Shown: one piece after another, positions 4,678 through 58,593 of the stretch
Numbering within the stretch: the stretch's first letter is position 1
Layout of the letters: each line of letters begins with the position of its first letter
NCBI GenBank assembly: GCA_965215045.1
Contig: OZ244031.1
Span: forward strand, 1,581,961 to 1,645,960
DNA length: 64,000 nt
Source of the DNA: Gammaproteobacteria bacterium
GTDB taxonomy: Bacteria; Pseudomonadota; Gammaproteobacteria; JABABF01
Reading direction: 5' to 3'
The notes under the pieces: generated by a model
The model's input: only the letters and a program-made list of their open reading frames with translations
The model's database searches: none
Told to the model about the DNA's origin: nothing
Made by a program: the position numbers and the translations under genes

Positions 4678-6693
4678 ATGCGCCGGTCCCCGCAGCTCCT
4701 GCCGCAAGGGAGTGTCCTGGTACCGCTGTTGGCGGCCTGTGCCTGTGCCGTCCTGCCGGTTGCAGCGCAGTCACCGGAGCGGCCGTACGCGCTCACCGAG
4801 GCGCGCGAGCCCTGCCGCGATTACCGCCCGCAAAAACAGCTGTTCTGGGGCGATACCCACGTGCATACGGCTTTTTCCTTCGATGCCGGCATCTATGGAA
4901 CCCGCAACCGGCCGGAAGATGCCTACCGCTATGCCCGCGGCGAGCGCCTGGGATTGCAGCCCTACGATGCGCAGGGCCGGGCACTGCGTTTTTCGCAATT
5001 GCGGGAACCGCTGGATTTCACCGTGGTCAGCGACCATGCCGAAGGTCTGGGCATTGCGGGTGTTTGCGGCGTGCCGGGCTACGAGGGCTATGACTCCTTC
5101 ACCTGCACCTCCTACAGGGAACGGCCGCGTCTTGCGCGTTTCCTGATGTTGCAACTCCCGCTCATTCGCCGCCACCTGGCCGAGCGTTACTCGTGGCTGG
5201 GTTTTCTGAAAAGACCGGAGGTCCGGGTGCGAGAGCCGCCCGCCCTGTGCGGGGAGGGGGGCAGGGACTGCCTGCAGGGCGGCCGGGAAATCTGGCGGCA
5301 GATCCAGGAAGCGGCAGAGCGCGCCTACGACCGCACTTCCGCCTGCCGTTTCACTTCTTTTGTCGCTTATGAGTGGACCGGGGATACGCGGGTGAACCTG
5401 CACCGCAACGTGATCTTCCGCAACCGCGAGGTGCTGGCACGGCCGATCAGTTACCTGGATGCGCCTACCCCGGAGGAGTTGTGGCAGGGGCTCCAACGCG
5501 ATTGCCTGGATGCCGGCAACGGCTGTGACTTGTTGGCCATTCCCCACAATGCCAATCTCAGCGACGGCCAGATGTTCCGACCCTGGGAGGGCGATACAAG
5601 CGATGATGCCCTGGCCCGGGCGCAGCTGCGCGCCCGCATCGAACCGGTGTTGGAAATCATGCAGCGCAAGGGGGACTCGGAGTGCTGGTTCGGGGCGGGG
5701 GTAGAGGATGAATTCTGCGCCTTTGAGAAACTGCCCTACGATCGATTTGCCGGAAGAACCTTCCGCAGTCTCGGGGCAGCACCCGAACCCGGCGATGGCT
5801 ATGCGCGGGACATCCTGGCCCGGGGCATGCGCTATTTTCGGGGTCTCGGCGTCGACCCCTACCGGCTGGGTTTTATCGGCAGCACGGATACACACCTGGG
5901 CATTTCGGGGGCGGTGGAGGAGGGCGGCTACCAGGGGCATGGCGACCCCGGGAATACGATACTGGGAAAATTGCCGGCGGCGGGTCTGCCGGATGCCCTG
6001 GAGTACAACCCCGGGGGATTGGCGGCGGTGTGGGCGGAGGAGAATACGCGCGATTCGCTGTTTGCGGCACTGCGTCGGCGCGAGGCCTACGGCACCAGCG
6101 GGCCGCGCATCCGGCTGCGCTTTTTCGGCGGCTGGGACTATGATCCGCAGCTGTGCCAGCAAGGAGTGCAGCACCTGGTCGACCGGGGTTATGCGCAGGG
6201 TGTGCCGATGGGCGGTGTCCTGGAGCCGGCCATGGACGGTGCCCGCCCGGGTTTCGTGGTCGATGCCTGGCGGGCCGCCGGCGGGGAAAACGCACCGCTG
6301 CAGCAGCTGCAGATCATCAAGGGTTGGCTCGATACCCGGGGCCGGGCCCAAGAAAAAATCTACACCGTGGCGGGTGAGCCCCGAAACGGGGCCGGTGTGG
6401 ACCTGGCGACATGCCGGGGACGGGGCAGCGGCTATGACCGCCTGTGCCAGGTGTGGGAGGACCCCGATTTCGAGAGCGGCCAGCAGGCGTATTATTATGT
6501 GCGGGTGCTCCAGAACCCGAGCTGCCGCTGGAGTGCGCGCATCTGCAATGCGCACCGGGTCGACTGCCAGCGGCCCGGGACCATCACCGGGGGACTTGCG
6601 GGCTGCTGTGCACCGGAGCACCGGCCGGTGATCCAGGAGCGGGCCTGGAGTTCACCGATCTGGTATCGTCCCGTCGCCCGGGCACCACACTGA
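4678..6693 (+). CDS. Secreted DUF3604-like protein, paralog 3
   Basis: 671 aa, same blocks (FWGDTHVHTAFSFD, DFTVVSDHAE, IPHNANLSDG). Starts 5 nt after paralog 2. Confidence 0.8.
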   Translation: MRRSPQLLPQGSVLVPLLAACACAVLPVAAQSPERPYALTEAREPCRDYRPQKQLFWGDTHVHTAFSFDAGIYGTRNRPEDAYRYARGERLGLQPYDAQGRALRFSQLREPLDFTVVSDHAEGLGIAGVCGVPGYEGYDSFTCTSYRERPRLARFLMLQLPLIRRHLAERYSWLGFLKRPEVRVREPPALCGEGGRDCLQGGREIWRQIQEAAERAYDRTSACRFTSFVAYEWTGDTRVNLHRNVIFRNREVLARPISYLDAPTPEELWQGLQRDCLDAGNGCDLLAIPHNANLSDGQMFRPWEGDTSDDALARAQLRARIEPVLEIMQRKGDSECWFGAGVEDEFCAFEKLPYDRFAGRTFRSLGAAPEPGDGYARDILARGMRYFRGLGVDPYRLGFIGSTDTHLGISGAVEEGGYQGHGDPGNTILGKLPAAGLPDALEYNPGGLAAVWAEENTRDSLFAALRRREAYGTSGPRIRLRFFGGWDYDPQLCQQGVQHLVDRGYAQGVPMGGVLEPAMDGARPGFVVDAWRAAGGENAPLQQLQIIKGWLDTRGRAQEKIYTVAGEPRNGAGVDLATCRGRGSGYDRLCQVWEDPDFESGQQAYYYVRVLQNPSCRWSARICNAHRVDCQRPGTITGGLAGCCAPEHRPVIQERAWSSPIWYRPVARAPH

Positions 6694-6703
6694 GGATCAT
6701 GTA

Positions 6704-8725
6704 ATGATGAATCGACATTCGCATCCCCTGCCGCTGAGCGGTATCTCGGTACTGCTGCTGGGGGCGTTCGCCTGGGCCTCCCCGCCGCTTGCAGCACAGG
6801 CACCGGAGCGGCCGTACACGATCACCGAGGAGCGCGAGCCCTGCCGCGATTACCGTCCGGAAAAACAGGTGTTCTGGGGCGACACCCACGTGCACACCGC
6901 GTACTCTTTTGACGCCTCTATGTGGGACACGCGCAATGACCCGGACGACGCCTACCGCTTCGCCCGGGGCGAGCCGGCGGGCATCCTGCCGTATAGCGAA
7001 CAGGGCGAGGCACAGCGCTGGGTGCAATTGCCCCGGCCGCTGGATTTTGCCATGGTCTCCGACCATGCCGAGCACCTGGGGCGCATCGATATCTGCGCGC
7101 GCAAAGACCTGCTGGGGTACTATTCGATCAACTGCAGGATCTTTCGCGGCCGCCCGCAACTGAGCTTTTTCACCAACCTGGCGATGCCGCTGATTCTGAA
7201 GGAACTCACGCTGCAGAACGATAATTGGCGCTTCCTGAAAAAGTTGTTTCGCGCCGAACAACCGCCGCTGTTCTGCGGCCCTGACAACCGGCGCTGTTAC
7301 GAAGCCGCGCGGCCGGTCTGGAAGCGCATCCAGGCGGCGGCGGAGCGCGCTTACGATCGCAGCACCGCCTGCCGTTTTACTTCTTTTGTCGGCTATGAAT
7401 GGACCGCCTACACCGGCGGCAATATTCATCGCAACGTGGTGTTCCGCAATGAGCGGGTGCCGGCGGACCCGATCAGTGCCAACGAGGCCCCCGAGGCTCC
7501 CGGGCTGTGGCGGGCCTTGGATCGCGAGTGCATCCAGGGGGTTCCCGGTTGCGATGTGCTGGTCATCCCGCACAACAGTAACGTGAGCCGGGGGCTGATG
7601 TTCCCCGACCCGGGCGGGGAGCGCACCGCACCGCACAACCCGCGCACCGCGGTGCTGAGTGCCCGTTTTGATCGCCTGTTCGAGATCATGCAGCACAAGG
7701 GCGATTCCGAGTGCTGGTACGGACAGGGGATCGCCGATGAACTGTGCGCCTTTGAGAAGCTGAGTTACGACGCCCTGGGTGCCCAGATCAGCCCGCGCTT
7801 TGCCATCCCCAGTCATCCCAGCGATGGTTTCCTGCGCCCCGTGCTGTCGTCGGGCCTGGTCTACCAGCGGCAATTCGGCGTCAATCCCTACCGCCTGGGC
7901 GTGATCGCGAGCACGGACAATCACCTGGGCACGCCGGGTTCGGTCGAGGAATACAATTTTGTCGGGCACACGGGCATCTCTGCCAACAGGAATTTCCAGA
8001 ACATGAGTGCCGGTCTGCGCCTGCCGGATTCGCCGAACTTCAATCCCGGCGGGCTGGCGGCGGTGTGGGCGGAAGAGAATACGCGCGACTCGCTGTTTTC
8101 TGCGATGCGCCGCCGCGAGACGTACGGCACCAGCGGCCCGCGGCTCGAGGTGCGCTTTTTCGGCGGTTGGAACTATCCCGCAGACTTGTGTCGCAACCCC
8201 GACTGGGTGAAGGAGGCGTATGCGGGCGGGGTGCCGATGGGCGGTGTCCTGGCCGCGGATGCCGCACTCGGAACCGCCGCTGCACCGCGCTTTTTGCTGT
8301 ATGCGCGTCGCGACCCGGGTGTCGCCGGGCATCCGGGTCTGCCGCTGCAATACATGCAGCTTATCAAGGGCTGGGTAGATGAGCGGGGCACCGCACAGGA
8401 GAAGGTCTACGACGTCGCCGGCAACCCCGACAGCGAGGCCGGGGTGGACAGTGACTGTCGGCCGCACGGTGCGGGATACCAGCGGCTGTGCCAGGTGTGG
8501 AGCGACCCGGACTTTGATGCGGGGCGCGATGCCTGGTACTACGCGCGCGTGTTGCAGAATCCGAGCTGCCGCTGGAGTGCTCGCTGGTGCAGTGCGCAGG
8601 GGGTGAACTGCGAGGATCCGGCATCGGTTCCCGCGGGCATGGAAGCCTGTTGTGCAGCGGATCATCGCCGGGTGATCCGGGAGCGGGCCTGGACTTCGCC
8701 GATCTGGTACCAGGCGCAGCCGTGA
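6704..8725 (+). CDS. Secreted DUF3604-like protein, paralog 4 (most divergent)
   Basis: 673 aa with the same core motifs (FWGDTHVHTAYSFD, DFAMVSDHAE, IPHNSNVSRG, MQHKGDSECWYG, C-terminal CCAADHRRVIRERAWTSPIWY). Signal-like N-terminus. Confidence 0.8.
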   Translation: MMNRHSHPLPLSGISVLLLGAFAWASPPLAAQAPERPYTITEEREPCRDYRPEKQVFWGDTHVHTAYSFDASMWDTRNDPDDAYRFARGEPAGILPYSEQGEAQRWVQLPRPLDFAMVSDHAEHLGRIDICARKDLLGYYSINCRIFRGRPQLSFFTNLAMPLILKELTLQNDNWRFLKKLFRAEQPPLFCGPDNRRCYEAARPVWKRIQAAAERAYDRSTACRFTSFVGYEWTAYTGGNIHRNVVFRNERVPADPISANEAPEAPGLWRALDRECIQGVPGCDVLVIPHNSNVSRGLMFPDPGGERTAPHNPRTAVLSARFDRLFEIMQHKGDSECWYGQGIADELCAFEKLSYDALGAQISPRFAIPSHPSDGFLRPVLSSGLVYQRQFGVNPYRLGVIASTDNHLGTPGSVEEYNFVGHTGISANRNFQNMSAGLRLPDSPNFNPGGLAAVWAEENTRDSLFSAMRRRETYGTSGPRLEVRFFGGWNYPADLCRNPDWVKEAYAGGVPMGGVLAADAALGTAAAPRFLLYARRDPGVAGHPGLPLQYMQLIKGWVDERGTAQEKVYDVAGNPDSEAGVDSDCRPHGAGYQRLCQVWSDPDFDAGRDAWYYARVLQNPSCRWSARWCSAQGVNCEDPASVPAGMEACCAADHRRVIRERAWTSPIWYQAQP

Positions 8726-17477: not shown

Positions 17478-17561
17478 AACTCTGCTCCTATGGTGATATT
17501 GCAGAAAAAACCTTCTTAATCATAGCAAAATAAAAACTTTTTGACATCCCCCTGAAAATAC

Positions 17562-17790
17562 GCCCATCGTGGCCCCCGCGTACGGGGGCGATGAATGCTT
17601 GGGAGCAGCGCGCACCGGGGCCGCCCATCGTGGCCCCTGCGTACGGGGGCGATGAATGCTTGGGAGCAGCGCGCACCGGGGCCGCCCATCGTGGCCCCTG
17701 CGTACGGGGGCGATGAATGCTTGGAAGCAGCGCGCACCGGGGCCGCCCATCGTGCGCCCCCGCGTACGGGGCACGGGCGACCCGGTACCG
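17562..17790. repeat. 61-bp tandem direct repeat, 3 full copies plus 1 partial
   Basis: Unit GCCCATCGTGGCCCC(C/T)GCGTACGGGGGCGATGAATGCTTGGGAGCAGCGCGCACCGGGGCC starts at 17562, 17623, 17684 and 17745. Each unit holds the hairpin GCCCCCG-CGTA-CGGGGGC. Confidence 0.9.
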
Positions 17791-28399: not shown

Positions 28400-28585
28400 G
28401 GGAACTTGAGCGAGGCCGCGGGGGAGCGCGCGGTGATTTGACGGCACTGTTTTCTTGGGGAACTGCGGGGGAGCACGCGGTGATTTGACGGCACTGCTTT
28501 CTTGGGGAACTGCGGAGGAGTGCGCGGTGATTTGACGACTGCCTCCCTGGGAAACTGCGGGGGAGCGCACTGCCGGAGGGGGGTG
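28400..28585. repeat. About 47-bp imperfect tandem repeat, 3 copies plus 1 partial, between ftsX and comEC
   Basis: Copies start near 28400, 28457, 28504 and 28549. Shared core GGGAACTGCGGGGGAGCRCGCGGTGATTTGACGRCACTG. Confidence 0.8.
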
Positions 28586-35777: not shown

Positions 35778-36363
35778 GAAACAACGCGTCCTCTTGCCAG
35801 GCGGTGAGTTGTGGAGCTATCCCGGGGCCTTCGCCCGGCAGGCGGATGACTGGCTGCGCGCCTTGCTGGACAAGGTCGCCTGGCGCAGTGAGAAACTGCA
35901 TCTCTTCGGGCGCTGGGTCGAAGCACCGCGGCGCATCGCCTGGTACGGCGACCCGGGTGCCGAGTACTGTTATTCGGGACGCCGTCATGCGCCCCGCCCC
36001 TGGATCGTCCCGCTGCAGGAAATGCGTACCGCGGTCCAAAAGCTGCTGGGGGCTTCTTTCAACAGTGCCCTGCTTAACCTGTACCGCGATGGCAATGACG
36101 CCATGGGCTGGCACAGCGATGATGAGCCGGAACTGCAACCGCGGCCCCTGATCGCCTCGCTGAGTTTCGGTGCCACCCGGCGTTTTGATCTGCGTCCGCG
36201 CGGCGGCGGCGCAATCGTCTCCCTGCAACTGGAACACGGTTCCCTGCTGGTGATGGGCGGCGATACGCAGCGTCACTGGCGGCACCGCGTACCGCGCAGT
36301 GCCCGCTGCCAGGCACCGCGGGTGAACGTGACGTTCCGGCGGGTGCGCGGGGTGCGTGCATGA
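35740..36363 (+). CDS. AlkB-like Fe(II)/2-oxoglutarate-dependent dioxygenase (alternative GTG start at 35767)
   Basis: LYRDGNDAMGWHSDDE...SLSFGATRRFDLR...LEHGSLLVMGGDTQRHWRHRVP matches the HxD...H motifs of AlkB/2OG-FeII oxygenases. Confidence 0.7.
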   Translation: MALCWRSNRVSSEKQRVLLPGGELWSYPGAFARQADDWLRALLDKVAWRSEKLHLFGRWVEAPRRIAWYGDPGAEYCYSGRRHAPRPWIVPLQEMRTAVQKLLGASFNSALLNLYRDGNDAMGWHSDDEPELQPRPLIASLSFGATRRFDLRPRGGGAIVSLQLEHGSLLVMGGDTQRHWRHRVPRSARCQAPRVNVTFRRVRGVRA

Positions 36364-38192
36364 TGCCGGCCGCGGACCGGGACTTCGACTCGCGCCGGCT
36401 GATCGGCGGCCTGCAGGAGCACCCCGGGATCTACCAGATGCTGGACCGCGAGGGCGAAGTGCTGTACGTGGGCAAGGCGCGCAATCTCAAGAAGCGCGTC
36501 GCCAGCTACTTTCAAAAGCGCGCACTGAACCGCCGCACGCTGGCGATGCTGGCGCGCGTGCGGGAGGTACAGGTCACGGTGACCGCCAGTGAGACGGAAG
36601 CACTGTTGCTGGAGCAAAACCTGATCAAGGAATACCATCCGCCGTACAACATCCTGTTGCGAGACGACAAGTCTTATCCCTGCATTCGCCTGTCAGAAGA
36701 GGAGTTTCCGCGGCTGTCTTTTTACCGCGGCGCGCGGCGCAGTGGTGCGCGCTATTTCGGCCCGTATCCCGGCGCGTCGGCGGTGCGCGACAGTTTGAAT
36801 TTTCTCTACCGCACCTTTCGCATACGGCAGTGTGAAAACAGCGTGTTTCGCAATCGTTCCCGCCCCTGCCTGCAATACGAGATCAAACGTTGCAGCGCCC
36901 CTTGCGTCGGTTTGATCAGTGCTGCGGAGTACGCCGAGAGTGTCGCGGATGCCGAAATGTTTCTGCAGGGCAACAACCGCGAGCTGCTCACGGGTCTCAG
37001 CGAGCGCATGGAGTCCGCTGCTGCGGCCGAGCACTACGAACGCGCCGCCGAGTTGCGCGACCAGGTCGCCGCGCTGAACCAGCTTCAGGAAAAGCAGTAC
37101 ATCGAGGGCGAGAAGGGCGATGTCGATATTCTCGCGGCGGCGGCGGCACCGGACTGTGTCTCGGTGCAGATGCTCTACGTGCGCGCCGGCCGTGTCATCG
37201 GCTCGCGCGGCTATTTCCCGCGCCTGCCCCTGGCGGAAAATCCGGGCGAGGCGCTGGCGGCATTTATTCCCGGCTTTTACCTGCGTGCGGCGGCCGAGAT
37301 CCCGCGCAAGATCCTGTTGAGTCACCCGGTGGCCGGCACCCGTGCGCTGGAGGAAGCCCTGGAGCGCCGCGCCAGTCACAAGGTACGCCTGCAATCCCGC
37401 GTGCAGGGTGCCCGACTGCGCTGGTTGCGCCTGGCCCGGGAGACCGCCGAACAGAACTTGCAGGGACGCATGGCGGGCGAGAGGCAGACCATTGCCCAGT
37501 TGCAGGAATTGCGCGAGGCCTTGCAACTGGAAGAGACGCCGCGCCGCCTGGAATGCTTTGATATCAGTCACAGCGGCGGCATAGAGACCGTGGCTTCCTG
37601 CGTGGCTTTTGACCAGGAAGGGGCGCGCAAAAGCGATTACCGCCGTTATATCATCCGCGGTATTGCGCCGGGAGACGATTATGCCGCCCTGCGCCAGGCC
37701 CTGTTGCGGCGCTACCGGCGGGTGCAGACGGGGCAGGGGGGCGCCCTGCCCGACGTGTTGCTGGTCGACGGCGGACCGGGGCAATTGCGCCAGGCGCGCG
37801 AAGTGTGGGACGAGCTGGGACTCGGCGCGGCGGCATTGCTGGGCGTCGCCAAGGGGCGCAGTCGCCGCCCGGGGCGGGAACGCTTGTGGACCGGCTCCGG
37901 GAAGGAGCTCCGGCTGGCACCGGACTCCGGTGCACTGCACCTGGTACAGCGTATCCGCGATGAGGCCCACCGTTTTGCCATCCAAGGGCACCGCCGCCGG
38001 CGCAGTGCCCGCAGTGGGGCCTCGCCGCTGGCGGAAGTCCCCGGCATCGGCCCCAAGCGCCGCCGCATGCTGTTGCGTTCTTTCGGGGGTTTGCAGGGCA
38101 TTCGCAAGGCGGCCCCGGAAGAGATTGCACGCACGCCGGGTATCAGCCTTAAAATGGCCGAAGATATTCTCGCGCACTTGCGGCGCAATTGA
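36360..38192 (+). CDS. uvrC: Excinuclease ABC subunit C
   Basis: N-terminal GIY-YIG (GIYQMLDREGEVLYVGKARNLKKR), UvrBC domain, C-terminal HhH. Confidence 0.9.
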   Translation: MMPAADRDFDSRRLIGGLQEHPGIYQMLDREGEVLYVGKARNLKKRVASYFQKRALNRRTLAMLARVREVQVTVTASETEALLLEQNLIKEYHPPYNILLRDDKSYPCIRLSEEEFPRLSFYRGARRSGARYFGPYPGASAVRDSLNFLYRTFRIRQCENSVFRNRSRPCLQYEIKRCSAPCVGLISAAEYAESVADAEMFLQGNNRELLTGLSERMESAAAAEHYERAAELRDQVAALNQLQEKQYIEGEKGDVDILAAAAAPDCVSVQMLYVRAGRVIGSRGYFPRLPLAENPGEALAAFIPGFYLRAAAEIPRKILLSHPVAGTRALEEALERRASHKVRLQSRVQGARLRWLRLARETAEQNLQGRMAGERQTIAQLQELREALQLEETPRRLECFDISHSGGIETVASCVAFDQEGARKSDYRRYIIRGIAPGDDYAALRQALLRRYRRVQTGQGGALPDVLLVDGGPGQLRQAREVWDELGLGAAALLGVAKGRSRRPGRERLWTGSGKELRLAPDSGALHLVQRIRDEAHRFAIQGHRRRRSARSGASPLAEVPGIGPKRRRMLLRSFGGLQGIRKAAPEEIARTPGISLKMAEDILAHLRRN

Positions 38193-38214
38193 GTCTGGCA
38201 GCGGAGCGATCAAC

Positions 38215-38772
38215 ATGAATTTGCCGATGTGGTTCACGGTATTGCGCATTGCCCTGGTGCCGCTGATCGTGCTGGCGATGCTGCTGTTGCCCGGCTACTG
38301 GGCGGCACTGTTATTCGTATGCGCTGCGCTCAGCGATTGGTTGGACGGCTGGCTGGCCCGGCGTTATGCGCAAGTCAGCCGCTTCGGTGCCTTCTTGGAC
38401 CCGGTGGCGGACAAGCTGGTGATCATCAGTGTGCTGATACTGTTGACGGCGTTTCACCAGACACTGTGGTTTTCACTGCCGGCACTGTGCATTATCAGCC
38501 GGGAAGTGCTGGTGCTGGCATTGCGGGAGTGGATGGTCGAAGTGGGCCGGCGCGCCCCGGTCTCCGTCTCGCGCCTGGGCAAGTGGAAGACCACGCTGCA
38601 ATTTGTCGCGCTGTTGCTATTCCTGCTCCTGGGCCGGGGCGACGAACTGCTGTTATTGCTGACGGCTTACCTGCTGTTGTACGTGTCACTGGTGCTGACC
38701 CTGTGGTCCATGGTCAACTACCTGCGCGCGGCGTGGTCAGAATTGGATTGGAGAGGCGAGCGCAAGCACTGA
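38215..38772 (+). CDS. pgsA: CDP-diacylglycerol--glycerol-3-phosphate 3-phosphatidyltransferase
   Basis: Start at MNLPMWFTVLRIALVP. CDP-alcohol phosphatidyltransferase motif DG.LAR......G...D...DK. Confidence 0.85.
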   Translation: MNLPMWFTVLRIALVPLIVLAMLLLPGYWAALLFVCAALSDWLDGWLARRYAQVSRFGAFLDPVADKLVIISVLILLTAFHQTLWFSLPALCIISREVLVLALREWMVEVGRRAPVSVSRLGKWKTTLQFVALLLFLLLGRGDELLLLLTAYLLLYVSLVLTLWSMVNYLRAAWSELDWRGERKH

Positions 38773-38778
38773 GGAGTT

Positions 38779-40167
38779 TCAATCCGATCGGGCACCCGGT
38801 GTCGTCGCCGCCGGCGATGCTGTAGCGGTGGCGGCAGGGGCTGTATCCAGGTGCCGGCGGTCCCAGCAGTTTTCGTGGTAATGCCGGCTGCCCCGGTAAT
38901 AAAAGAATATGCCGACCAGGTAGCTGAAGAAGGCGGCAGCCAGGCCCCAGCGTATGGAGTTCTTGCCGAAGACAGGATGCGTGAGGTCACTGACCCAGCC
39001 GACCAGGAACGGCCCCAGGCTCAGGCCGATCAGGCTCATGAACAGCATCAAGATGGCGCAGGCCAGGGTGCGTTGCGTGGGTGCCACCAACGCTTGGGCG
39101 GCGACATAAGAGGGGGCGGCCCACCAGGTGCCGACGACACCGGACAGGATGGCGAACAAGGCTGCGACCGGCAGCTGGAACTGGCCGAAAAACAAGTTCT
39201 GCCCCTCCGGCCACAGCAGGAACAGCAGCAGCAGGGGCAGCGACAGTATCAGGCTCAGCATCGGCACGAGCATTTGCCAGGCGCGGTCCCTCATCACCAT
39301 CCGGTCGCAGAGTAAGCCGCCCAGCAGGGAGCCGGCCAGGGCGCTGACCGTGCCCAGCAGACCGACGACAATGCTGGCGTGAAACAGGCTCATTTCATGC
39401 ACGCGGATTAAGAAACTGACCTGCCAGTGCCCGAGTCCGTAACCGGCCAGCGAGGCAAAACCAGCACCCAGCAACAGGGCGCGCATCGCCGGGATATTCC
39501 ACATCTCGCGGAAAGTGCGAAAGGCACCTTGTTGTTCATCGTCTGCCGTCGTCGTTTGCTCATCCCAGTACCCCTTGGCCGGCTCGCGCAGGGTGAAACG
39601 GATCAGCAGGGCGAGCACCAGCCCGGGGGCACCCAGGACCAGGAAGGCCCTGCGCCAGCCGTAATTTTCCGCGATCCAACCGCCGCCGCCGAAAGCGAGC
39701 ATCATGCCGATAAAAGTGCCGCAGGCAAAAATCGACATCGCCGTGGAACGGTCCTTGGGCGGATAATAATCGGCGACCAGGGATTGGGAGGGCGGAGTAC
39801 CGCCGGCCTGGCCGATGCCGACGCCGATGCGGAACAACAGCAGGTGCCAGTAGTTTCCAGCGACCGCGCAGAGCACGGTCATCAGGCTCCATACGCCCGC
39901 CGCCCATGCCAGCACATTGCGGCGCACGCCCCGGTCCGCCCACATGGCCGCCGGAATACTGAGCGTGACATAGAACACGGCGAAGACCAGGCCGTACAGA
40001 ATGCCCATTTGTGTATCGCTGGCCTGGAATTCCTCTTTCATAGGCTCCACGAGCACGGAAAGAAGTTGCCGGTGGAGGAAATTAAAGACGTACGTCAGTG
40101 TCAGGATGCCCAGTGCATAATGCGCATGGGCGCGGGAAATTTCAGTTAAAGATGAATCTGTGCGCAC
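38779..40167 (-). CDS. MFS transporter
   Basis: 462 aa, 12 TM, with MFS signature regions (GRRNVLAWAAGVWSLMTV..., second half repeat). Confidence 0.75.
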   Translation of the reverse strand: MRTDSSLTEISRAHAHYALGILTLTYVFNFLHRQLLSVLVEPMKEEFQASDTQMGILYGLVFAVFYVTLSIPAAMWADRGVRRNVLAWAAGVWSLMTVLCAVAGNYWHLLLFRIGVGIGQAGGTPPSQSLVADYYPPKDRSTAMSIFACGTFIGMMLAFGGGGWIAENYGWRRAFLVLGAPGLVLALLIRFTLREPAKGYWDEQTTTADDEQQGAFRTFREMWNIPAMRALLLGAGFASLAGYGLGHWQVSFLIRVHEMSLFHASIVVGLLGTVSALAGSLLGGLLCDRMVMRDRAWQMLVPMLSLILSLPLLLLFLLWPEGQNLFFGQFQLPVAALFAILSGVVGTWWAAPSYVAAQALVAPTQRTLACAILMLFMSLIGLSLGPFLVGWVSDLTHPVFGKNSIRWGLAAAFFSYLVGIFFYYRGSRHYHENCWDRRHLDTAPAATATASPAATTPGARSD

Positions 40168-40234: not shown

Positions 40235-40308
40235 GGCTGGATGGCAGAGTGGTTATGCAGCGGACTGCAACTCCGTGTACGCCGGTTCGATTCCGACTCC
40301 AGCCTCCA
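40235..40308 (+). tRNA. tRNA-Cys (anticodon GCA)
   Basis: Acceptor GGCTGGA/TCCAGCC plus TCCA. Anticodon arm GCGGA-CTGCAAC-TCCGT, T-loop TTCGATT. One C-A mismatch in the T stem. Confidence 0.8.
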
Positions 40309-40328
40309 TATTTGCCGCGCTCTCTAAG

Positions 40329-40512
40329 CAGGGGGGAGTGGAAAGCAGAGGGGGAGTGGAAAGCAGAGGGGGAGTGGAGAGCAGGGGGGGAGTGGAGAGC
40401 AGGGGGGAGTGGAGAGCAGAGGGGGAGTGGAAAGCAGAGGGGGAGTGGAGAGCAGAGGGGGAGTGGAAAGCAGAGGGGGAGTGGAAAGCAGAGGGGGAGT
40501 GGAGAGCAGGGG
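40329..40512. repeat. 18-bp G-rich tandem repeat, about 11 copies, between tRNA-Cys and tRNA-Leu
   Basis: Unit GGGGGAGTGGA(A/G)AGCAGA, with occasional 17/19-bp variants. The G5-7 runs recur every 18 nt on the + strand. Confidence 0.9.
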
Positions 40513-40596
40513 GAGCATGAAAACAGCATGCCGGGCGGGTGGTTTGATTTTCCTGGCACCGGTGATGAGAGGCACAAGAGTAGCCTGGCAGTGAAC

Positions 40597-40683
40597 GCCC
40601 GGGTGGCGAAATTGGTAGACGCAGGGGACTTAAAATCCCCGGACTTGCAAGTCATGTCGGTTCGAGTCCGGCCCCGGGCACCA
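40597..40683 (+). tRNA. tRNA-Leu (anticodon TAA), long variable arm
   Basis: 87 nt, GCCCGGG...CCCGGGC-ACCA. Anticodon arm GGGGA-CTTAAAA-TCCCC. Same cysT-leuZ order after pgsA as in E. coli. Confidence 0.9.
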
Positions 40684-40741
40684 GGAACGGGCGGGGAATG
40701 CTCCCCGGCTCGCAAGACCCCGGCTATATGATGCTGGCGTT

Positions 40742-41000
40742 GAGTATAGGGCTTGGGATTGGTTTATATATACGCTGTCGTTTAGTATAGGGCTAGGGAT
40801 TGGTTTATATATACGCTGTCGTTTAGTATAGGGCTAGGGATTGGTTTATATATACGCTGTCGTTTAGTATAGGGCTAGGAATTGGTTTATATTATTCTAT
40901 CGTTTAGTATAGGGCTAGGGGTTGGTTTATATTATTCTATCATTTAGTATAGGGCTTGGAATTGGTTTATATATACGCTATCGTTTAGTATAGATATTGA
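40742..41000. repeat. 41-bp AT-rich tandem repeat, about 6.5 copies
   Basis: Unit GTTTAGTATAGGGCTAGGGATTGGTTTATATATACGCTGTC at 40742, 40780, 40821, 40862, 40902 and 40942, with a partial copy to about 41000. Copies 4-5 carry the variant TATTATTCTATC. Confidence 0.9.
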
Positions 41001-41060
41001 AATTTTATGCTATTATGTGTTATCTACAATCATTTTCCTCCAAACACGGGTCTGAGCAAA

Positions 41061-42254
41061 ATGGCAGAGCATCCACAAGCAAGCTCTCCCGATCGGGAAC
41101 GCACCGGCCGCTATGTACAGCAGCCACAGGGATACCGCGCTTTTATCCCCAGGGCATTGCCTCCCGATCCCCCCTTGCGGCTCAGCCCGGGGATGCAGCA
41201 ACTGCTCTCCCAAGCGGACCGTGCCCTGGGGCGGCTGAGTGGTTCCGCGGGGGTATTGCCCAGCCTGGGTTTGTTTGTCTACGAGATGCACGTGCGCAAG
41301 GAGGCGGTGTTATCCAGCCGGATCGAGGGAACCCGGAGTTCCCTGCAGGATTTGCTGATTGCCGAGGCCGGCGTGCTCCCATCCGGGCGTCCCGATGATG
41401 TCGCCGAAGTCACCAATTATGTGCGGGCTTTCAACTATGGTCTGTATCGACTGGAGGAGCTTCCCGTGTGTGTTCGGCTATTATGCGAAATGCACGAGCT
41501 CTTGCTGCAGGGGGTGCGGGGGGCCCCGGCCCGGCCCGGGCTGCTGCGCGAGTCTCAAAATTGGCTCGGGCCCGCCGGGTGCGATCGGAGCGAAGCCACT
41601 TTTATACCTCCTCCTCCCGCCGAGGTGCCTGCCGCCCTGGGGGAGCTGGAAAAGTTTCTGAATGCCCCAGGCGGCTTACCCCCACTGGTCTGGATTGGCC
41701 TGGCGCATGCCCAATTTGAAACCATTCATCCCTTCCTGGATGGCAATGGGCGCCTGGGCCGCCTGCTGATTAGCTTGCTGCTGGCGCAACAGCAGATCTT
41801 GCAAAAGCCGGTTCTCTACCTGTCGGATTATTTTTATCGCCACCGCTTGGAGTACTACGATCGTCTCCAGGCCGTACATGAGCAGGGCGACTGGGAAGGA
41901 TGGATCGAATTCTTTCTGCAGGGGGTCGCCGATGTGAGTCAGGATGCGGCCGAAACCATTCAGCACATCTATGCTCTGCGTGAAAAACATCGTGCTGAGA
42001 TTAATATGGCATTGGGGCGGGCTGCCGGCAACGGGCTGCGTATCCTGGAGTTCCTTTACTCGCAGCCGCTGTTCACCGTGCCCCGGGTGCAGGGACACCT
42101 GGGTGTCAGTTATGCATCGGCCAATCAACTGGTATCGCGCCTGGAAAAATTGGGGATCCTGGAGGAAATCAGTGGCCGTAAACGCAATCGCGTGTACCGC
42201 TATTCCTCTTACCTGGAACTCTTTGAAAAAAATCCTCCGCCGAACCAGGCCTGA
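41061..42254 (+). CDS. Fic family protein (class-II-like; putative AMPylating toxin-type enzyme) with C-terminal winged-helix region
   Basis: Start at MAEHPQ. Fic_N-type N-terminus (YVQQPQGYRAFIPRALPP), inhibitory-helix motif SSRIEG (S/TxxxE(G/N)), catalytic motif HPFLDGNGRLGR. Confidence 0.8.
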   Translation: MAEHPQASSPDRERTGRYVQQPQGYRAFIPRALPPDPPLRLSPGMQQLLSQADRALGRLSGSAGVLPSLGLFVYEMHVRKEAVLSSRIEGTRSSLQDLLIAEAGVLPSGRPDDVAEVTNYVRAFNYGLYRLEELPVCVRLLCEMHELLLQGVRGAPARPGLLRESQNWLGPAGCDRSEATFIPPPPAEVPAALGELEKFLNAPGGLPPLVWIGLAHAQFETIHPFLDGNGRLGRLLISLLLAQQQILQKPVLYLSDYFYRHRLEYYDRLQAVHEQGDWEGWIEFFLQGVADVSQDAAETIQHIYALREKHRAEINMALGRAAGNGLRILEFLYSQPLFTVPRVQGHLGVSYASANQLVSRLEKLGILEEISGRKRNRVYRYSSYLELFEKNPPPNQA

Positions 42255-42272
42255 AGGCCGGGGGTGCTGTGC

Positions 42273-42824
42273 TTATTGGCCCGCCGGGCATCCCTCTGCG
42301 TCACAATCGTCGGCCGGGTGCTCCGGTGCCAGGTTTTCCGTCTGCTCCTGTGCCGGTTCTTCTCGCAGCAGTGCCATGATCTCTGCGCCCAGTTCCATGT
42401 CCTGCACGGCACCGAATTTCTGTTTCCTGCATCTTCCCTGGCGGTCGACCAGGATTTGCGTCGGCGTGCCCTGCATCCCGTAAGCGGCCATGGTTTGCGG
42501 GATGCCGCCTCCTTGGGCGGGTGCATCGATGCCGACCGGAAAGAAAATGCGGTATTCGTGCAGGAAGGCCTCCAGGGCTTGGCGGCTGCCCTGGGCGGCG
42601 TGGTGTTCGAATACCGTGTGCAAGCCGATGACCGTGACTTCGTCCTGGCGGAAGGTCTGGGCGACGCGCCCCGCCTGGGGCAGGGCATGCGATACGCAGC
42701 CCGGGCAGAGCATCTGGAAAGCCTCGATCAAAACGACCCGGCCGCGCAGTTCCCGCAGGGTGCAGGGGCGATCGGTATTCAGCCATTCGCTGGTTTGCAG
42801 TTCCGGGGCGGGTTTGAATGCCAT
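42273..42824 (-). CDS. TlpA/ResA-like thiol-disulfide oxidoreductase (thioredoxin fold, CPGC)
   Basis: 183 aa with a redoxin-like VVLIEAFQMLCPGCVSHALP CxxC motif. Confidence 0.65.
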   Translation of the reverse strand: MAFKPAPELQTSEWLNTDRPCTLRELRGRVVLIEAFQMLCPGCVSHALPQAGRVAQTFRQDEVTVIGLHTVFEHHAAQGSRQALEAFLHEYRIFFPVGIDAPAQGGGIPQTMAAYGMQGTPTQILVDRQGRCRKQKFGAVQDMELGAEIMALLREEPAQEQTENLAPEHPADDCDAEGCPAGQ

Positions 42825-42956
42825 GGCGGTATTTCCAAGGGCGCGGTTCGTGTCTCGCGGGGACGGGCGTTGCCGGGGGACCCAGGGGCTGTTTTGCCGC
42901 CTCCCGGGGCCCCCGAATTATAAGCCCGGAACCCCCGTTTCCGATGCCGGGGAAAA

Positions 42957-42984
42957 TTGACATTGATTCTTTCCCTGTTATAAA
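42957..42984 (+). promoter_or_regulatory. S10 operon sigma70 promoter (TTGACA-16 nt-TATAAA)
   Basis: TTGACA at 42957..42962 and TATAAA at 42979..42984, upstream of rpsJ. Confidence 0.55.
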
Positions 42985-42996
42985 CTATTTCACCTT

Positions 42997-43052
42997 TTGC
43001 CCCGCCAGCCTGACCTCCAGACAGGGGAGGTCGGGGCGGGGCTGTATACATT
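42997..43052 (+). promoter_or_regulatory. S10 leader GC-rich hairpin followed by a T-run (putative L4-responsive attenuator)
   Basis: GCCCCGCCAGCCTGACCTCC-AGACA-GGGGAGGTCGGGGCGGGGC then TGTATACATTTTTAAAC, immediately before rpsJ. Confidence 0.4.
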
Positions 43053-43072
43053 TTTAAACCCGGAGCTCCCCC

Positions 43073-43399
43073 GTGGAAGGAGAACAGCGGATACGCATAC
43101 GGTTGAAGTCGTTCGACCACCGTATCATCGATGCCTCGACGCGCGAGATCGTCGAGGCGGCGCGGCGTACCGGTGCCCGGGTCCGCGGGCCGATTCCCCT
43201 GCCGACGCGCAAGGAGCACTACACCGTGCTGATCTCCCCGCACGCGGACAAGGATGCGCGCGACCAGTATGAAATACGCACTCACAAGCGTCTGCTCGAA
43301 ATCGACGTGACGCCGCAGACCATTGACGCGCTGGCGCAACTGGCCCTGCCGGCCGGTGTAGACACGCAGATCAAAACTTTTGGCAAGGACGAGAAATAA
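43073..43399 (+). CDS. rpsJ: 30S ribosomal protein S10
   Basis: [52 protein letters not shown]. Confidence 0.95.
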
Positions 43400-43413
43400 G
43401 CGGGGAGTCGGCG

Positions 43414-44109
43414 ATGGCAATCGGTTTACTGGGACGCAAGCTGGGAATGACCCGCGTGTTCAACGAGGACGGAGTCTCGGTGCCCGTCACCGTGATTGAA
43501 GTGGCGCCCAATCGCGTCGTGCGCCTGCTGGACAAGGAGCGCGAGGGCTACCGCGCGGTGCAACTCAGCAGCGGGGAGGCCAGGACCAAGCACTTGTCCC
43601 GCGCCGAGGCGGGGCATTTCACCCGGCATAACACGCCTCCCGGTGCCCGGCTGCGGGAGTTTCGCCTGGAGGAGACGGAAGAGGTACCCGCCGAAGACGG
43701 CATGCTGACCGTCGATTGGTTTCGAGTTGGCCAGCAGGTGAACGTGACCGGCGTCTCCCGCGGCAAGGGTTTCCAGAGCGGCATTCGCCGCTGGAATTTT
43801 CGCAGCCAGGACCACAGTCATGGCAATTCCAAGGCGCACCGTTCCAACGGTGCCATCGGTCAATGCCAGACCCCTGGACGGGTCTGGAAGGGTAAGAAAA
43901 TGTCGGGTCGCATGGGAAATATGCAGGTGACTGCGCGCAACCTGGGTGTGGTGCGCGTCGACACCGAACGCAATCTTCTGCTGGTTCGGGGCGCGGTGCC
44001 CGGGGCACCGGATGCCGAGTTGCTGGTGCGTCCCTCCCGCGGATGCCTGACGCCGCCGGCACCGCCCGCGGCAACGGAAGCCGCCGCGGCAGAGGCTGCT
44101 GCCGAATAA
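43414..44109 (+). CDS. rplC: 50S ribosomal protein L3
   Basis: MAIGLLGRKLGMTRVFNEDG... Confidence 0.95.
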   Translation: MAIGLLGRKLGMTRVFNEDGVSVPVTVIEVAPNRVVRLLDKEREGYRAVQLSSGEARTKHLSRAEAGHFTRHNTPPGARLREFRLEETEEVPAEDGMLTVDWFRVGQQVNVTGVSRGKGFQSGIRRWNFRSQDHSHGNSKAHRSNGAIGQCQTPGRVWKGKKMSGRMGNMQVTARNLGVVRVDTERNLLLVRGAVPGAPDAELLVRPSRGCLTPPAPPAATEAAAAEAAAE

Positions 44110-57897: not shown

Positions 57898-58593
57898 ATG
57901 CCAATTTACGAATACAGCTGTTCACACTGCGCCCATGAGCTGGAAGCCCTGCAGGCGATGGGTGAACCGCTGCTGGTTAAATGTCCCGCCTGCGGTGAGA
58001 GGAAGCTGCAGAAAAAACTGAGTGCCGCCGCCTTTCATCTCAAGGGGCAGGGGTGGTACAAGACGGATTTCCAGGACCAGGGGAAAAAGAACGCCGCAGA
58101 AGGCGCGGATGCCGCCGGCACCGGGGATGCAAAAGAAGATGCCGCACGGTCTGCGGCCGCCCAAGCCGGTGAGCGCGGCGATGGTGCCTCTAGGGCTGGT
58201 GAGCGCGGCGATGGTGCCTCTAGGGCTGGTGAGCGCGGCGACGGCAACTCTCGGGCAGGCGAGCGCGGCGATGGTGCCTCTAGGGCCGGTGAGCGCGGCG
58301 ATGGTGCCTCCCGGGCCGGCGAGCGCGGCGATGGCAGCTCTCGGGCCGGTGAGCGCGGGGATGGTGCCTCTAGGGCCGGCGAGCGCGGCGATGGGGCCTC
58401 TAGGGCCGGTGAGCGCGGGGATGGCAGCTCTAGGGCCGGTGAGCGCGGCGATGGCAGCTCTCGGGCCGGTGAGCGCGGGGATGGTGCCTCTAGGGCCGGC
58501 GAGCGCGGCGATGGCACCGCGACTGTAAACAACAGCACCCGGGAGACGTCCTCCCGCTCCTCCGGAAGCGACTCCCAGGGCGCCTCCGCCTGA
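57898..58593 (+). CDS. FmdB-family zinc-ribbon protein with 12x decapeptide (AGERGDGASR) C-terminal repeat tail
   Basis: MPIYEYSCSHCAHELEALQAMGEPLLVKCPACGERKL is the FmdB CxxC...CxxC zinc ribbon. This is followed by 30-bp in-frame DNA repeats across 58165..58525. Confidence 0.75.
   Translation: MPIYEYSCSHCAHELEALQAMGEPLLVKCPACGERKLQKKLSAAAFHLKGQGWYKTDFQDQGKKNAAEGADAAGTGDAKEDAARSAAAQAGERGDGASRAGERGDGASRAGERGDGNSRAGERGDGASRAGERGDGASRAGERGDGSSRAGERGDGASRAGERGDGASRAGERGDGSSRAGERGDGSSRAGERGDGASRAGERGDGTATVNNSTRETSSRSSGSDSQGASA
58165..58525 (+). repeat. 30-bp near-perfect tandem repeat x12 (in-frame, inside the FmdB-family CDS)
   Basis: Unit GGTGAGCGCGGCGATGGTGCCTCTAGGGC(T/C), with minor variants (GGCAGCTCT, GGCAACTCT). 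Confidence 0.9.

What the first reader, a model, noticed from the sequence alone, without database searches (positions are those of the whole stretch)
40742..41000. AT-rich 41-bp tandem repeats (6.5 copies) immediately 3' of tRNA-Leu
The unit GTTTAGTATAGGGCTAGGGATTGGTTTATATATACGCTGTC is about 65 % AT in a genome of about 67 % GC. It begins about 60 bp after the tRNA-Leu 3' end and ends about 60 bp before the fic start. There are no spacers, so it is not a CRISPR array. It resembles iterons or operator arrays, or a foreign-DNA scar.
Basis: partly seen in the sequence, partly recalled or inferred. Interest (0 to 1): 0.75.

Follow-up and report, generated by a model that had tools for sequence, protein, structure and literature searches.

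The report
Tandem operator boxes upstream of SoFic
The AT-rich 41-bp repeat is most likely a seven-fold expanded array of binding sites through which the neighbouring Fic/SoFic toxin-like anti-phage enzyme represses its own gene; this kind of self-control is already known for related enzymes, but it is unusually amplified here.

Summary
The repeat is real: TRF finds 40725-40993, period 41, 6.6 copies, 34% GC in a 64% GC window.

It is not an iteron array, a CRISPR array, a structured RNA or an integration scar. Each unit carries one copy of a box that recurs immediately upstream of homologous fic genes in unrelated organisms. The family consensus is CCATATTAAAGGCAGCCTTTAATATGG, an imperfect palindrome. 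Homologous loci usually have 2-4 boxes, spaced 39-41 bp apart. The window has seven, the most seen.

The downstream gene is a SoFic-type class II Fic with a C-terminal wHTH (PADLOC SoFic, E=2.6e-116). Published experiments show that two relatives bind their own promoters as dimers, and CccR represses its promoter that way. The published SoFic promoter DNA also carries a repeated motif at about 40-bp spacing.

The best reading is a phased operator array for cooperative autorepression of a toxic AMPylase, expanded by slippage or unequal recombination.

A closely related strain has the same locus with fewer units. Its fic allele differs by about 9% while the flanks differ by about 0.3%. This means the array-plus-fic module was exchanged by recombination.

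Binding, repression and the promoter position are inferred, not shown. The window's boxes match the family consensus only partly: the right half-sites are good and the left halves are weak.

The parts
40723..40749 (+). Box 0 (GCTATATGATGCTGGCGTTGAGTATAG). It is the most distal and most divergent box: good right half-site, poor left half.
   Evidence: Right half-site scores 11.6 bits with a PWM built only from other loci. It lies in the first TRF unit.
40764..40790 (+). Box 1, type A (TTATATATACGCTGTCGTTTAGTATAG), in the family's canonical half-site spacing.
   Evidence: PWM score 7.4 bits. It is among the top 8 hits of the whole 64-kb window on both strands.
40805..40831 (+). Box 2, type A, identical to box 1. 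This suggests a recent duplication.
40846..40872 (+). Box 3, type A, identical to box 1.
40886..40912 (+). Box 4, type B (TTTATATTATTCTATCGTTTAGTATAG), in a 40-bp unit. The left half ATATTA is one base closer to the right half than in the consensus.
   Evidence: Right half scores 8.7 bits. The left half scores positively (1.3 bits) only when shifted by one base.
40926..40952 (+). Box 5, type B variant (…CTATCATTTAGTATAG).
   Evidence: Right half scores 4.2 bits.
40967..40993 (+). Box 6, the box nearest fic and the best match to the family consensus (TTATATATACGCTATCGTTTAGTATAG). By sequence reading it carries a weak promoter-like pair, TTGGTT (40962-40967) - N18 - TAGTAT (40986-40991).
   Evidence: PWM score 13.0 bits, the top hit of the window; reached by 1.2% of dinucleotide shuffles of the array. 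The promoter-like pair is my reading and did not pass the scan threshold.
40994..41060 (+). Degenerate last unit plus leader. It contains TACAAT (41025-41030), a possible -10 element, and the alternative start ATG 41007. In homologues the box at this phase overlaps the start codon.
   Evidence: Sequence; comparison with homologous loci. No transcription start data exist.
41061..42254 (+). fic, a SoFic-type class II Fic AMPylase (Fic_N, Fic and a C-terminal wHTH). It is the presumed protein that binds the boxes.
   Evidence: Pfam Fic_N and Fic. PADLOC SoFic E=2.6e-116 over residues 24-389. PDB SoFic/3EQX E about 1e-30 over residues 51-390. Motifs SSRIEG and HPFLDGNGRLGR.

Best explanation
The repeat is a tandem array of seven operator boxes for the product of the gene just downstream. 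[quoted passage not shown]

Each 40/41-bp unit holds one ~27-bp box plus a 13-14 bp spacer. The period is about four helical turns, so all boxes face the same side of the DNA.

Proposed mechanism (inferred): Fic dimers bind the boxes, and neighbouring dimers help each other bind. The occupied array covers the promoter region and keeps transcription of the potentially toxic enzyme low and self-limiting. This matches what has been shown for the relative CccR and suggested for SoFic.

The usual family layout is 2-4 phased boxes. Here the unit has been amplified to seven, probably by replication slippage or unequal recombination between the direct repeats. This may sharpen or strengthen repression, or titrate the protein.

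Shown here: the repeat itself, box homology, positional specificity, the conserved phasing, and the family membership of the gene.

Inferred: that this Fic binds the boxes, that binding represses transcription, where the promoter lies, and any effect of copy number.
For: 1. Upstream regions of 80 fic homologues from metagenomes revealed a recurrent imperfect palindrome with consensus CCATATTAAAGGCAGCCTTTAATATGG.

2. The box is specific to the fic upstream region. In 381 kb of those loci, 59 of 79 PWM hits lie within 250 bp upstream of the fic start and 13 more at 0 to +25. Only 7 lie elsewhere.

3. Box-to-box spacing is 39-41 bp in 25 of 27 adjacent pairs from independent loci, the same period as the window's repeat. 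Among 68 loci with upstream DNA, boxes per locus were 0 (39 loci), 1 (9), 2 (14), 3 (5) and 4 (1).

4. A PWM built only from other loci places its top 8 hits of the whole 64-kb window (both strands) inside the array. All are in one register, and the best (13.0 bits) is the box nearest fic.

5. Whole units align with those of homologous loci. The closest homologues, L165 and L166 (64% and 62% identity), have three boxes at -100, -59 and -20. Their left half CTATACTAAACGC is the reverse complement of the window's right half.

6. The same layout occurs on finished plasmids of cultured isolates: Synechocystis PCC 6803 pSYSX, PCC 7002 pAQ6, Microvirga and Phyllobacterium.

7. The boxes travel with fic whatever the neighbouring genes are: hsdM, hsdR, tRNA or others.

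8. Loci with canonical boxes share the C-terminal-domain motif GRAAGNGHRVLE. Loci without them differ at that motif.

9. Experimental precedent exists. CccR (Fic-HTH) represses its own promoter as a dimer through inverted repeats (PMC9755527). Dimeric SoFic binds the AT-rich 100 bp upstream of its own start codon (bioRxiv 10.64898/2026.07.09.737422). In their published promoter DNA I find ATGTCGAT at -107, -68 and -28, that is at about 40-bp spacing; the -68 copy is part of a compact palindrome.

10. The wHTH helix and wing are conserved between the window and strain L001, as are the boxes.
Against: - The window's boxes match the family consensus only partly. The right half-sites score 4.2-11.6 bits, but the left halves score only -1.4 to 4.3. 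The best full box is reached by 1.2% of shuffles of the AT-rich array.
- 39 of 68 homologous loci have no box detectable with this PWM. They probably carry diverged box types, which was seen but not quantified.
- No promoter passed the consensus scan in the array, so whether the boxes overlap the promoter is unknown. Here the last good box ends 68 bp before the preferred start codon, whereas in homologues the proximal box overlaps the start codon.
- The link between box type and C-terminal-domain motif could simply reflect shared ancestry.
- Nothing shows that seven copies behave differently from three. This genome has other intergenic tandem repeats, so the expansion could be neutral.
Confidence: 0.7

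Rival explanations
1. The expansion is a neutral minisatellite (VNTR). Only the two or three boxes nearest fic act as an operator. The extra units are a by-product of slippage in a genome prone to intergenic tandem repeats, and they have no function of their own.
For: The window holds other intergenic tandem repeats: 61 bp x3.4 at 17561-17771, 47 bp x3.3 at 28418-28568, and 18 bp x10.6 at 40326-40513. Units 2 and 3 are identical, which suggests recent duplication. The related strain seems to manage with 3-4 boxes. No other locus had more than 4 boxes.
Against: The right half-site is kept in all seven units, while the spacer and left half vary. The 40/41-bp phase is kept throughout. This reading is compatible with the main explanation for the proximal boxes and differs only on the extra copies.
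Confidence: 0.18
2. The boxes are bound by another protein rather than by Fic. Candidates are a nucleoid-associated silencer of AT-rich DNA (H-NS- or IHF-like) or an unlinked regulator, and the phased AT-rich DNA could be intrinsically curved.
For: The array is 34% GC in a 64% GC genome, which is typical of DNA targeted by xenogeneic silencers. A period of 40-41 bp is close to four helical turns. No binding experiment exists for this protein.
Against: The box sequence, not just AT-richness, is conserved next to fic across Alphaproteobacteria, Gammaproteobacteria and cyanobacteria, in genomes of 31-69% GC and with different neighbouring genes. The only constant partner is Fic itself. SoFic did not bind a random fragment of matched GC content.
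Confidence: 0.07
3. The array is a plasmid- or phage-type iteron array, an integration scar, or the remnant of a mobile element inserted at tRNA-Leu.
For: The array lies next to a tRNA gene. fic has a lower GC3 than its neighbours (0.66 against 0.75-0.81). The fic allele was replaced by recombination between strains.
Against: There is no rep gene, integrase or transposase between tRNA-Leu and the S10 operon. There is no direct repeat of the tRNA 3' end. The array has no DNA match in plasmid or phage collections, nor in viral, genome or metagenome pattern scans. The same boxes occur at fic loci that are not next to tRNA genes.
Confidence: 0.03
4. The array is transcribed and acts as RNA, either as a structured leader or as repeated small RNAs.
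For: The family box is palindromic and could form a hairpin. In homologues the proximal box overlaps the start codon.
Against: Across 50 boxes only 52% of mirrored positions are Watson-Crick, and G-U (64) equals A-C (61). So no strand is favoured and pairing is not maintained. The array folds worse than shuffles on both strands (z +1.67 and +2.54). There is no Rfam match.
Confidence: 0.02

Closest known systems
CccR of Yersinia pseudotuberculosis and its PcccR operator (PMC9755527)
   Same: Both are class II Fic proteins with an N-terminal inhibitory helix and a C-terminal HTH. CccR's dimer binds inverted repeats in its own promoter and represses it. The toxic and regulatory activities sit in one polypeptide.
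   Different: The CccR operator is two 10-bp inverted repeats (AGATAATCAT) separated by 26 bp and bound by one dimer. Here the boxes are compact ~27-bp imperfect palindromes repeated seven times at 40/41 bp. The box sequences are unrelated. CccR is a T6SS effector, and no T6SS context is seen here.
SoFic of Shewanella oneidensis (anti-phage SoFic family; bioRxiv 10.64898/2026.07.09.737422; PMC12249575)
   Same: The domain architecture is the same, and the window's protein matches the PADLOC SoFic model over its full length (E=2.6e-116). Dimeric SoFic binds the AT-rich 100 bp upstream of its own start codon. Its promoter DNA carries a repeated motif at about 40-bp spacing (my reading of their Table S2).
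   Different: Sequence similarity to the S. oneidensis protein is remote: 147.7 bits against NCBIfam's equivalog cut-off of 550. The motif differs (ATGTCGAT), with 3-5 copies instead of seven near-identical tandem units. The authors defined no operator motif or phasing. No AS1-like small ORF follows fic here.
CbFic2 of Coxiella burnetii (PMC10628234)
   Same: It is a Fic enzyme with an HTH domain, and DNA binding induces its dimerisation and its (de)AMPylation activity. This shows that DNA can regulate the enzyme as well as the gene.
   Different: CbFic2 was tested only on random DNA, and no cognate site is known. It is a secreted effector that acts on histone H3.
Multi-operator autorepression with helical phasing (for example lambda OR/OL, or toxin-antitoxin operators)
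   Same: Repeated dyad-symmetric sites lie upstream of the regulator's own gene, spaced by whole helical turns. This is consistent with cooperative binding.
   Different: Here the sites form a perfect head-to-tail tandem repeat whose copy number appears to vary, and the repressor is fused to an AMPylase.

Membership tests
SoFic-type class II Fic (Fic_N - Fic - wHTH) | [quoted passage not shown] | tested here: met
   HPFLDGNGRLGR is present in the translation. Pfam Fic E=5.2e-18.
SoFic-type class II Fic (Fic_N - Fic - wHTH) | N-terminal inhibitory helix motif (S/T)xxxE(G/N), which defines class II | tested here: met
   SSRIEG lies in the Fic_N region. Pfam Fic_N E=5.4e-22. The motif definition is from PMC9755527.
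SoFic-type class II Fic (Fic_N - Fic - wHTH) | C-terminal SoFic-like winged-helix domain | tested here: met
   The phmmer alignment to the SoFic chains (3EQX, 9TCH) runs through query residues 51-390 and chain residues 37-364. The PADLOC SoFic model is matched at 5-359 of 361 positions. There is a weak Csa3 wHTH hit at residues 317-382. No structure was predicted here.
SoFic-type class II Fic (Fic_N - Fic - wHTH) | Equivalog of S. oneidensis SoFic by NCBIfam's curated cut-off | tested here: not met
   NF046030 scores 147.7 bits against a cut-off of 550. The protein is a family member, not an equivalog.
SoFic-type class II Fic (Fic_N - Fic - wHTH) | Protection against phage, or AMPylation of EF-Tu | not testable with these tools
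   These are known only for other members.
Autoregulatory operator of a Fic-HTH protein (CccR/SoFic type) | Repeated or dyad-symmetric sites immediately upstream of the regulator's own gene | tested here: met
   Seven boxes lie at 40723-40993, ending 68 bp before ATG 41061. Homologous boxes lie within 250 bp upstream of fic in 29 of 68 loci.
Autoregulatory operator of a Fic-HTH protein (CccR/SoFic type) | Sites overlap the -35/-10 promoter elements | tested here: inconclusive
   The consensus scan finds no promoter in the array. By eye there is TTGGTT-N18-TAGTAT in type A units and TACAAT at 41025-41030. No transcription start data exist.
Autoregulatory operator of a Fic-HTH protein (CccR/SoFic type) | The sites are bound by the protein's C-terminal domain, and binding represses transcription | not testable with these tools
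   This needs EMSA or footprinting and reporter assays.
Iterons of a replication origin | An adjacent rep gene or origin features, and direct repeats of about 17-22 bp | tested here: not met
   The neighbours are tRNA-Cys, tRNA-Leu, fic, a thioredoxin-fold gene and the S10 operon. The period is 41 bp.
tRNA-linked genomic island or integration scar | An integrase, and a direct repeat of the tRNA 3' end at the far border | tested here: not met
   There is no such ORF between 40684 and 43072. There is no repeat of the tRNA-Leu 3' end in 40500-43100.
CRISPR array | Repeats separated by unique spacers | tested here: not met
   The units are head to tail with no spacers.

The most novel reading that the evidence does not exclude
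The 39-41 bp phased multi-box layout may be a general and so far undescribed feature of the whole SoFic defence family. It may be more than a repressor site: a DNA scaffold on which Fic dimers assemble side by side, so that DNA occupancy controls the enzyme's dimer-dependent AMPylase (toxin) activity as well as its transcription. CbFic2 shows that such control of the enzyme by DNA is possible. The seven-unit array would then be a store or sensor for the defence protein. Copy-number change would tune the threshold at which the toxin is released during infection.
Probability: 0.12. Interest if true: 0.75.

Novelty: new variant of a known kind. Interest (0 to 1): 0.45.

Why it matters
SoFic is a recognised single-gene anti-phage system, and how its toxic AMPylase is held in check is still being worked out. 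The two published DNA-binding studies each looked at one promoter, and the SoFic study defined no motif.

The comparison made here gives three things:
- a concrete consensus box for one large SoFic subfamily;
- a conserved spacing of four helical turns that also fits the published SoFic promoter;
- a natural allele in which the unit is amplified to seven copies.

Together these allow direct tests of cooperativity, copy-number dependence and DNA-controlled enzyme activity.

The work also explains a striking AT-rich island in a GC-rich genome without invoking foreign DNA. It shows that the operator-plus-fic module is exchanged as a unit between otherwise near-identical strains.

Tried and rejected
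**Source genome and relatives**
- Exact look-ups of the Fic protein, in both start variants and as the database copy P0001, returned no contig. The source genome itself could not be retrieved.
- Exact look-ups of the thioredoxin-fold protein and of S10 found only the two L001/L002 contigs.
- L3 homologues with names are only about 61% identical. The lineage is therefore deep and poorly sampled, and no orthologous locus lacking fic could be obtained.
- A genome-collection scan with the neighbouring thioredoxin-fold protein gave 80 loci, none syntenic.

**Searches for the repeat elsewhere**
- Pattern scans for the repeat core in genome, metagenome and viral collections gave 0 matches.
- blastn of the array against plasmids and phages gave no match.

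**Annotation-type searches**
- Rfam found only the two tRNAs.
- The promoter/terminator scan found nothing in the array.
- nhmmer with the box HMM did not pick up the window's boxes. A position weight matrix was needed.

**Readings rejected**
- RNA hairpin: there is no pairing bias and folding is poor.
- att scar at the tRNA: there is no duplicated tRNA end.
- In-situ diversifying selection on fic: dN/dS is 0.40 and dS is 0.168, about 50 times the flank divergence. This points to allele replacement instead.

Full report
**1. Observation**

The repeat is real. Tandem Repeats Finder reports 40725-40993, period 41, 6.6 copies, 91% matches, score 403. A 24-nt core of the unit occurs six times with at most 3 mismatches, only here. 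None are expected in 100 dinucleotide shuffles of the window.

Units start at 40739, 40780, 40821, 40862, 40902 and 40942. Two of them are 40 bp long. A degenerate seventh unit follows. The array is 34% GC against 64.4% for the window.

**2. Context**

| Feature | Coordinates | Evidence |
|---|---|---|
| uvrC | 36360-38192 | |
| pgsA | C-terminal part of the frame of ORF 37609-38772 | |
| MFS transporter (minus strand) | 38779-40167 | |
| tRNA-Cys | 40235-40308 | |
| 18-bp purine-rich repeat, x10.6 | 40326-40513 | |
| tRNA-Leu(UAA) | 40597-40683 | |
| the array | 40725-40993 | |
| fic | 41061-42254 | |
| thioredoxin-fold gene (minus strand) | 42273-42824 | |
| S10 ribosomal operon | from 43073 | |

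**3. The gene downstream**

The ORF carries Pfam Fic_N and Fic, the class II inhibitory motif SSRIEG, and the catalytic motif HPFLDGNGRLGR.

It matches the PADLOC SoFic model over its whole length (E=2.6e-116). It aligns to the solved SoFic structures through residue 390, which includes the C-terminal winged-helix domain. It falls well below NCBIfam's equivalog cut-off for S. oneidensis SoFic (147.7 bits against 550). It is therefore a family member, not an equivalog.

The database gene call (415 aa) starts at ATG 41007, inside the last degenerate unit. Homologue lengths (about 385-405 aa) and alignments favour ATG 41061.

**4. The only relative available**

The source genome could not be retrieved. 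One related strain exists as two short contigs, L001 and L002. It has the same order: 18-bp repeat, tRNA-Leu, AT-rich units, fic, thioredoxin-fold gene, S10 operon. It shows four boxes in L001 and three in L002, against seven in the window. These are low-coverage short-read assemblies, so the unit number there may be collapsed.

tRNA-Leu and the 55 bp after it are identical between the strains. The 3.7 kb downstream of fic differ by about 0.3%. fic itself differs by about 9%, or 111 differences. For fic, dS is 0.168, dN is 0.067 and dN/dS is 0.40.

A synonymous divergence about 50 times that of the flanks means the array-plus-fic segment was replaced by recombination with a diverged allele. 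It did not evolve fast in place.

The predicted recognition helix and wing (GVSYASANQLVSRLE.LGILEEISGRKRNRVYRY) are almost unchanged between the strains, as is the right half of every box.

**5. What the unit is**

I fetched 80 metagenomic loci encoding homologues of 45-62% identity. Reading their upstream regions showed a recurrent imperfect palindrome, consensus CCATATTAAAGGCAGCCTTTAATATGG, often in several copies.

An HMM seeded from 15 sites found 76 hits on both strands, all just upstream of fic.

A weight matrix built from 33 sites gave these results across 381 kb:

| Measure | Result |
|---|---|
| Hits within 250 bp upstream of the fic start | 59 of 79 |
| Hits at 0 to +25 (start estimates are rough) | 13 |
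| Hits elsewhere | 7 |
| Adjacent-box spacing of 39-41 bp | 25 of 27 pairs |
| Boxes per locus, 68 loci with upstream DNA | 0 (39 loci), 1 (9), 2 (14), 3 (5), 4 (1) |

Applied to the window, the same matrix contains no window sequence. It places its eight best hits of both strands inside the array, all in one register (ATATATACGCTGTCGTTTAGTATA). The best, 13.0 bits, is the box nearest fic. Dinucleotide shuffles of the array reach that score 1.2% of the time.

All seven right half-sites score 4.2-11.6 bits. The left halves are weak, and two units have the left half one base closer. Whole units align with those of other loci.

The two closest homologues, L165 and L166 (64% and 62% identity), both lie downstream of hsdM. 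They have exactly three boxes at -100, -59 and -20. Their left half CTATACTAAACGC is the reverse complement of the window's CGTTTAGTATAG. Their proximal box overlaps the start codon.

Finished plasmids of cultured isolates show the same phased layout with a variant box (CCTTATTATCG...CGATAATA). The start codon lies inside the proximal box in pSYSX of Synechocystis PCC 6803 and pAQ6 of PCC 7002.

The boxes stay AT-rich in loci whose fic gene is 65-69% GC. The composition of the window's array is therefore a property of the site, not evidence of foreign origin.

**6. DNA site or RNA structure**

- Across 50 boxes only 52% of mirrored positions are Watson-Crick. G-U (64) equals A-C (61), so pairing is not maintained and no strand is favoured.
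- The array folds worse than its shuffles on both strands (z +1.67 and +2.54).
- Rfam finds nothing apart from the two tRNAs.

The boxes behave as an imperfect DNA dyad, not as a hairpin.

**7. Who binds it**

The only constant neighbour of the boxes is fic. The upstream genes vary: hsdM, hsdR, a tRNA, an aminotransferase and others.

Loci with canonical boxes share the C-terminal-domain motif GRAAGNGHRVLE, and loci without them differ there. The window's protein (GRAAGNGLRILE) and its boxes are both intermediate. This link is suggestive but was not corrected for shared ancestry.

Experiments on relatives supply the mechanism:
- CccR, a class II Fic with a C-terminal HTH, binds inverted repeats in its own promoter as a dimer and represses it. 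Mutating the repeats abolishes binding and raises expression (PMC9755527).
- Dimeric SoFic, but not the monomeric mutant, binds the AT-rich 100 bp upstream of its own start codon and does not bind GC-matched random DNA. The authors defined no motif (bioRxiv 10.64898/2026.07.09.737422).
- In their published promoter sequence I find ATGTCGAT at -107, -68 and -28, with inverted copies at -137 and -57. That is a compact palindrome plus direct copies at 39-41 bp spacing. The four-turn phasing therefore extends to the tested protein.
- CbFic2 shows that DNA binding can also induce dimerisation and enzyme activity (PMC10628234).

**8. Mechanism proposed**

The array is a set of seven phased operators. 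Fic dimers bind one per box on one face of the helix, probably cooperatively, and hold transcription of a potentially toxic AMPylase low and self-limiting.

Where the promoter lies is not known. Type A units read TTGGTT-N18-TAGTAT, and TACAAT lies at 41025-41030, but nothing passed the scan.

The expansion from the usual 2-4 boxes to seven is best explained by slippage or unequal recombination between the direct repeats. Units 2 and 3 are identical. Whether the extra copies matter is open. The same window has other intergenic tandem repeats, so a neutral expansion is a serious partial rival.

**9. Other readings**

- Iterons: there is no rep gene, and the site is chromosomal and conserved.
- Island scar: there is no integrase and no duplicated tRNA end.
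- Dispersed repeat family: there are no other copies in the window or in any collection scanned.

fic itself does look horizontally mobile. Its GC3 is 0.66 against 0.75-0.81 in its neighbours, its allele was replaced between strains, and its homologues sit in type I R-M loci and on plasmids.

**10. Verdict**

The element belongs to a known kind, the autoregulatory operator of a Fic-wHTH protein. It has two features I did not find described in the papers read:
- a conserved box with four-turn phasing across a large SoFic subfamily;
- a seven-unit tandem amplification in this genome.

All statements about binding and regulation are inferred.

Noticed in passing
window 40326-40513: An 18-bp purine-rich tandem repeat (AAGCAGAGGGGGAGTGGA, 10.6 copies, 94% matches) fills the spacer between tRNA-Cys and tRNA-Leu. 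It is also present in the related strain, whose contig L001 begins inside it. Its function is unknown; it may be part of the tRNA primary transcript.
   Followed up: partly
window 41061-42254 compared with L001 471-1661: fic is a sharp divergence hotspot. It differs by about 9% at the nucleotide level (dS 0.168) between two strains whose flanking tRNA, thioredoxin-fold gene and ribosomal genes differ by 0-0.3%. This indicates allele replacement of the operator-plus-fic module by recombination.
   Followed up: yes
window 17561-17771, 28418-28568 and 58165-58516: There are further tandem repeats: 61 bp x3.4 (97% matches) and 47 bp x3.3, both apparently intergenic and GC-rich, and 30 bp x11.7, whose period is a multiple of three and which may be coding. 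The genome seems prone to tandem repeats.
   Followed up: partly
L166, about 4769 and 5185: In one homologous locus, two more boxes (12.7 and 19.0 bits) lie downstream of fic. The second is about 60 bp upstream of a protein kinase gene (5245-6729). This hints that the Fic protein may regulate neighbouring genes too.
   Followed up: no
L165 3793-4026, L166 4185-4430, L167 4173-4271: In the closest homologous loci, small ORFs (32-81 aa) overlap the fic stop codon by 4 bp. They recall the AS1 anti-SoFic small protein reported for E. coli (PMC12249575). No such ORF follows fic in the window; there a convergent thioredoxin-fold gene ends 18 bp after fic.
   Followed up: partly
L170 and L171 (PCC 7002 pAQ6, PCC 6803 pSYSX) near 2465-2491; also L087, L098, L100, L106, L109: In many homologues the promoter-proximal box overlaps the fic start codon. 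The ATG lies in the box's right half-site (…AATTATGG), so the operator and the translation start are physically fused.
   Followed up: partly
window 43073-44109: The ribosomal proteins place the organism in a deep, poorly sampled gammaproteobacterial lineage. The L3 homologues that carry a name are about 61% identical (Halioglobus, Oceanospirillum, Halomonadaceae). One unnamed 1.5-kb metagenome contig is 91% identical.
   Followed up: partly
L002 1-38: The second assembly of the related strain begins with a divergent unit (…TTGTAGCATGGGCGCATGACTGGGGTTATAT) in place of the tRNA-proximal sequence. This points either to array heterogeneity in that population or to an assembly artefact at the repeat.
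   Followed up: no
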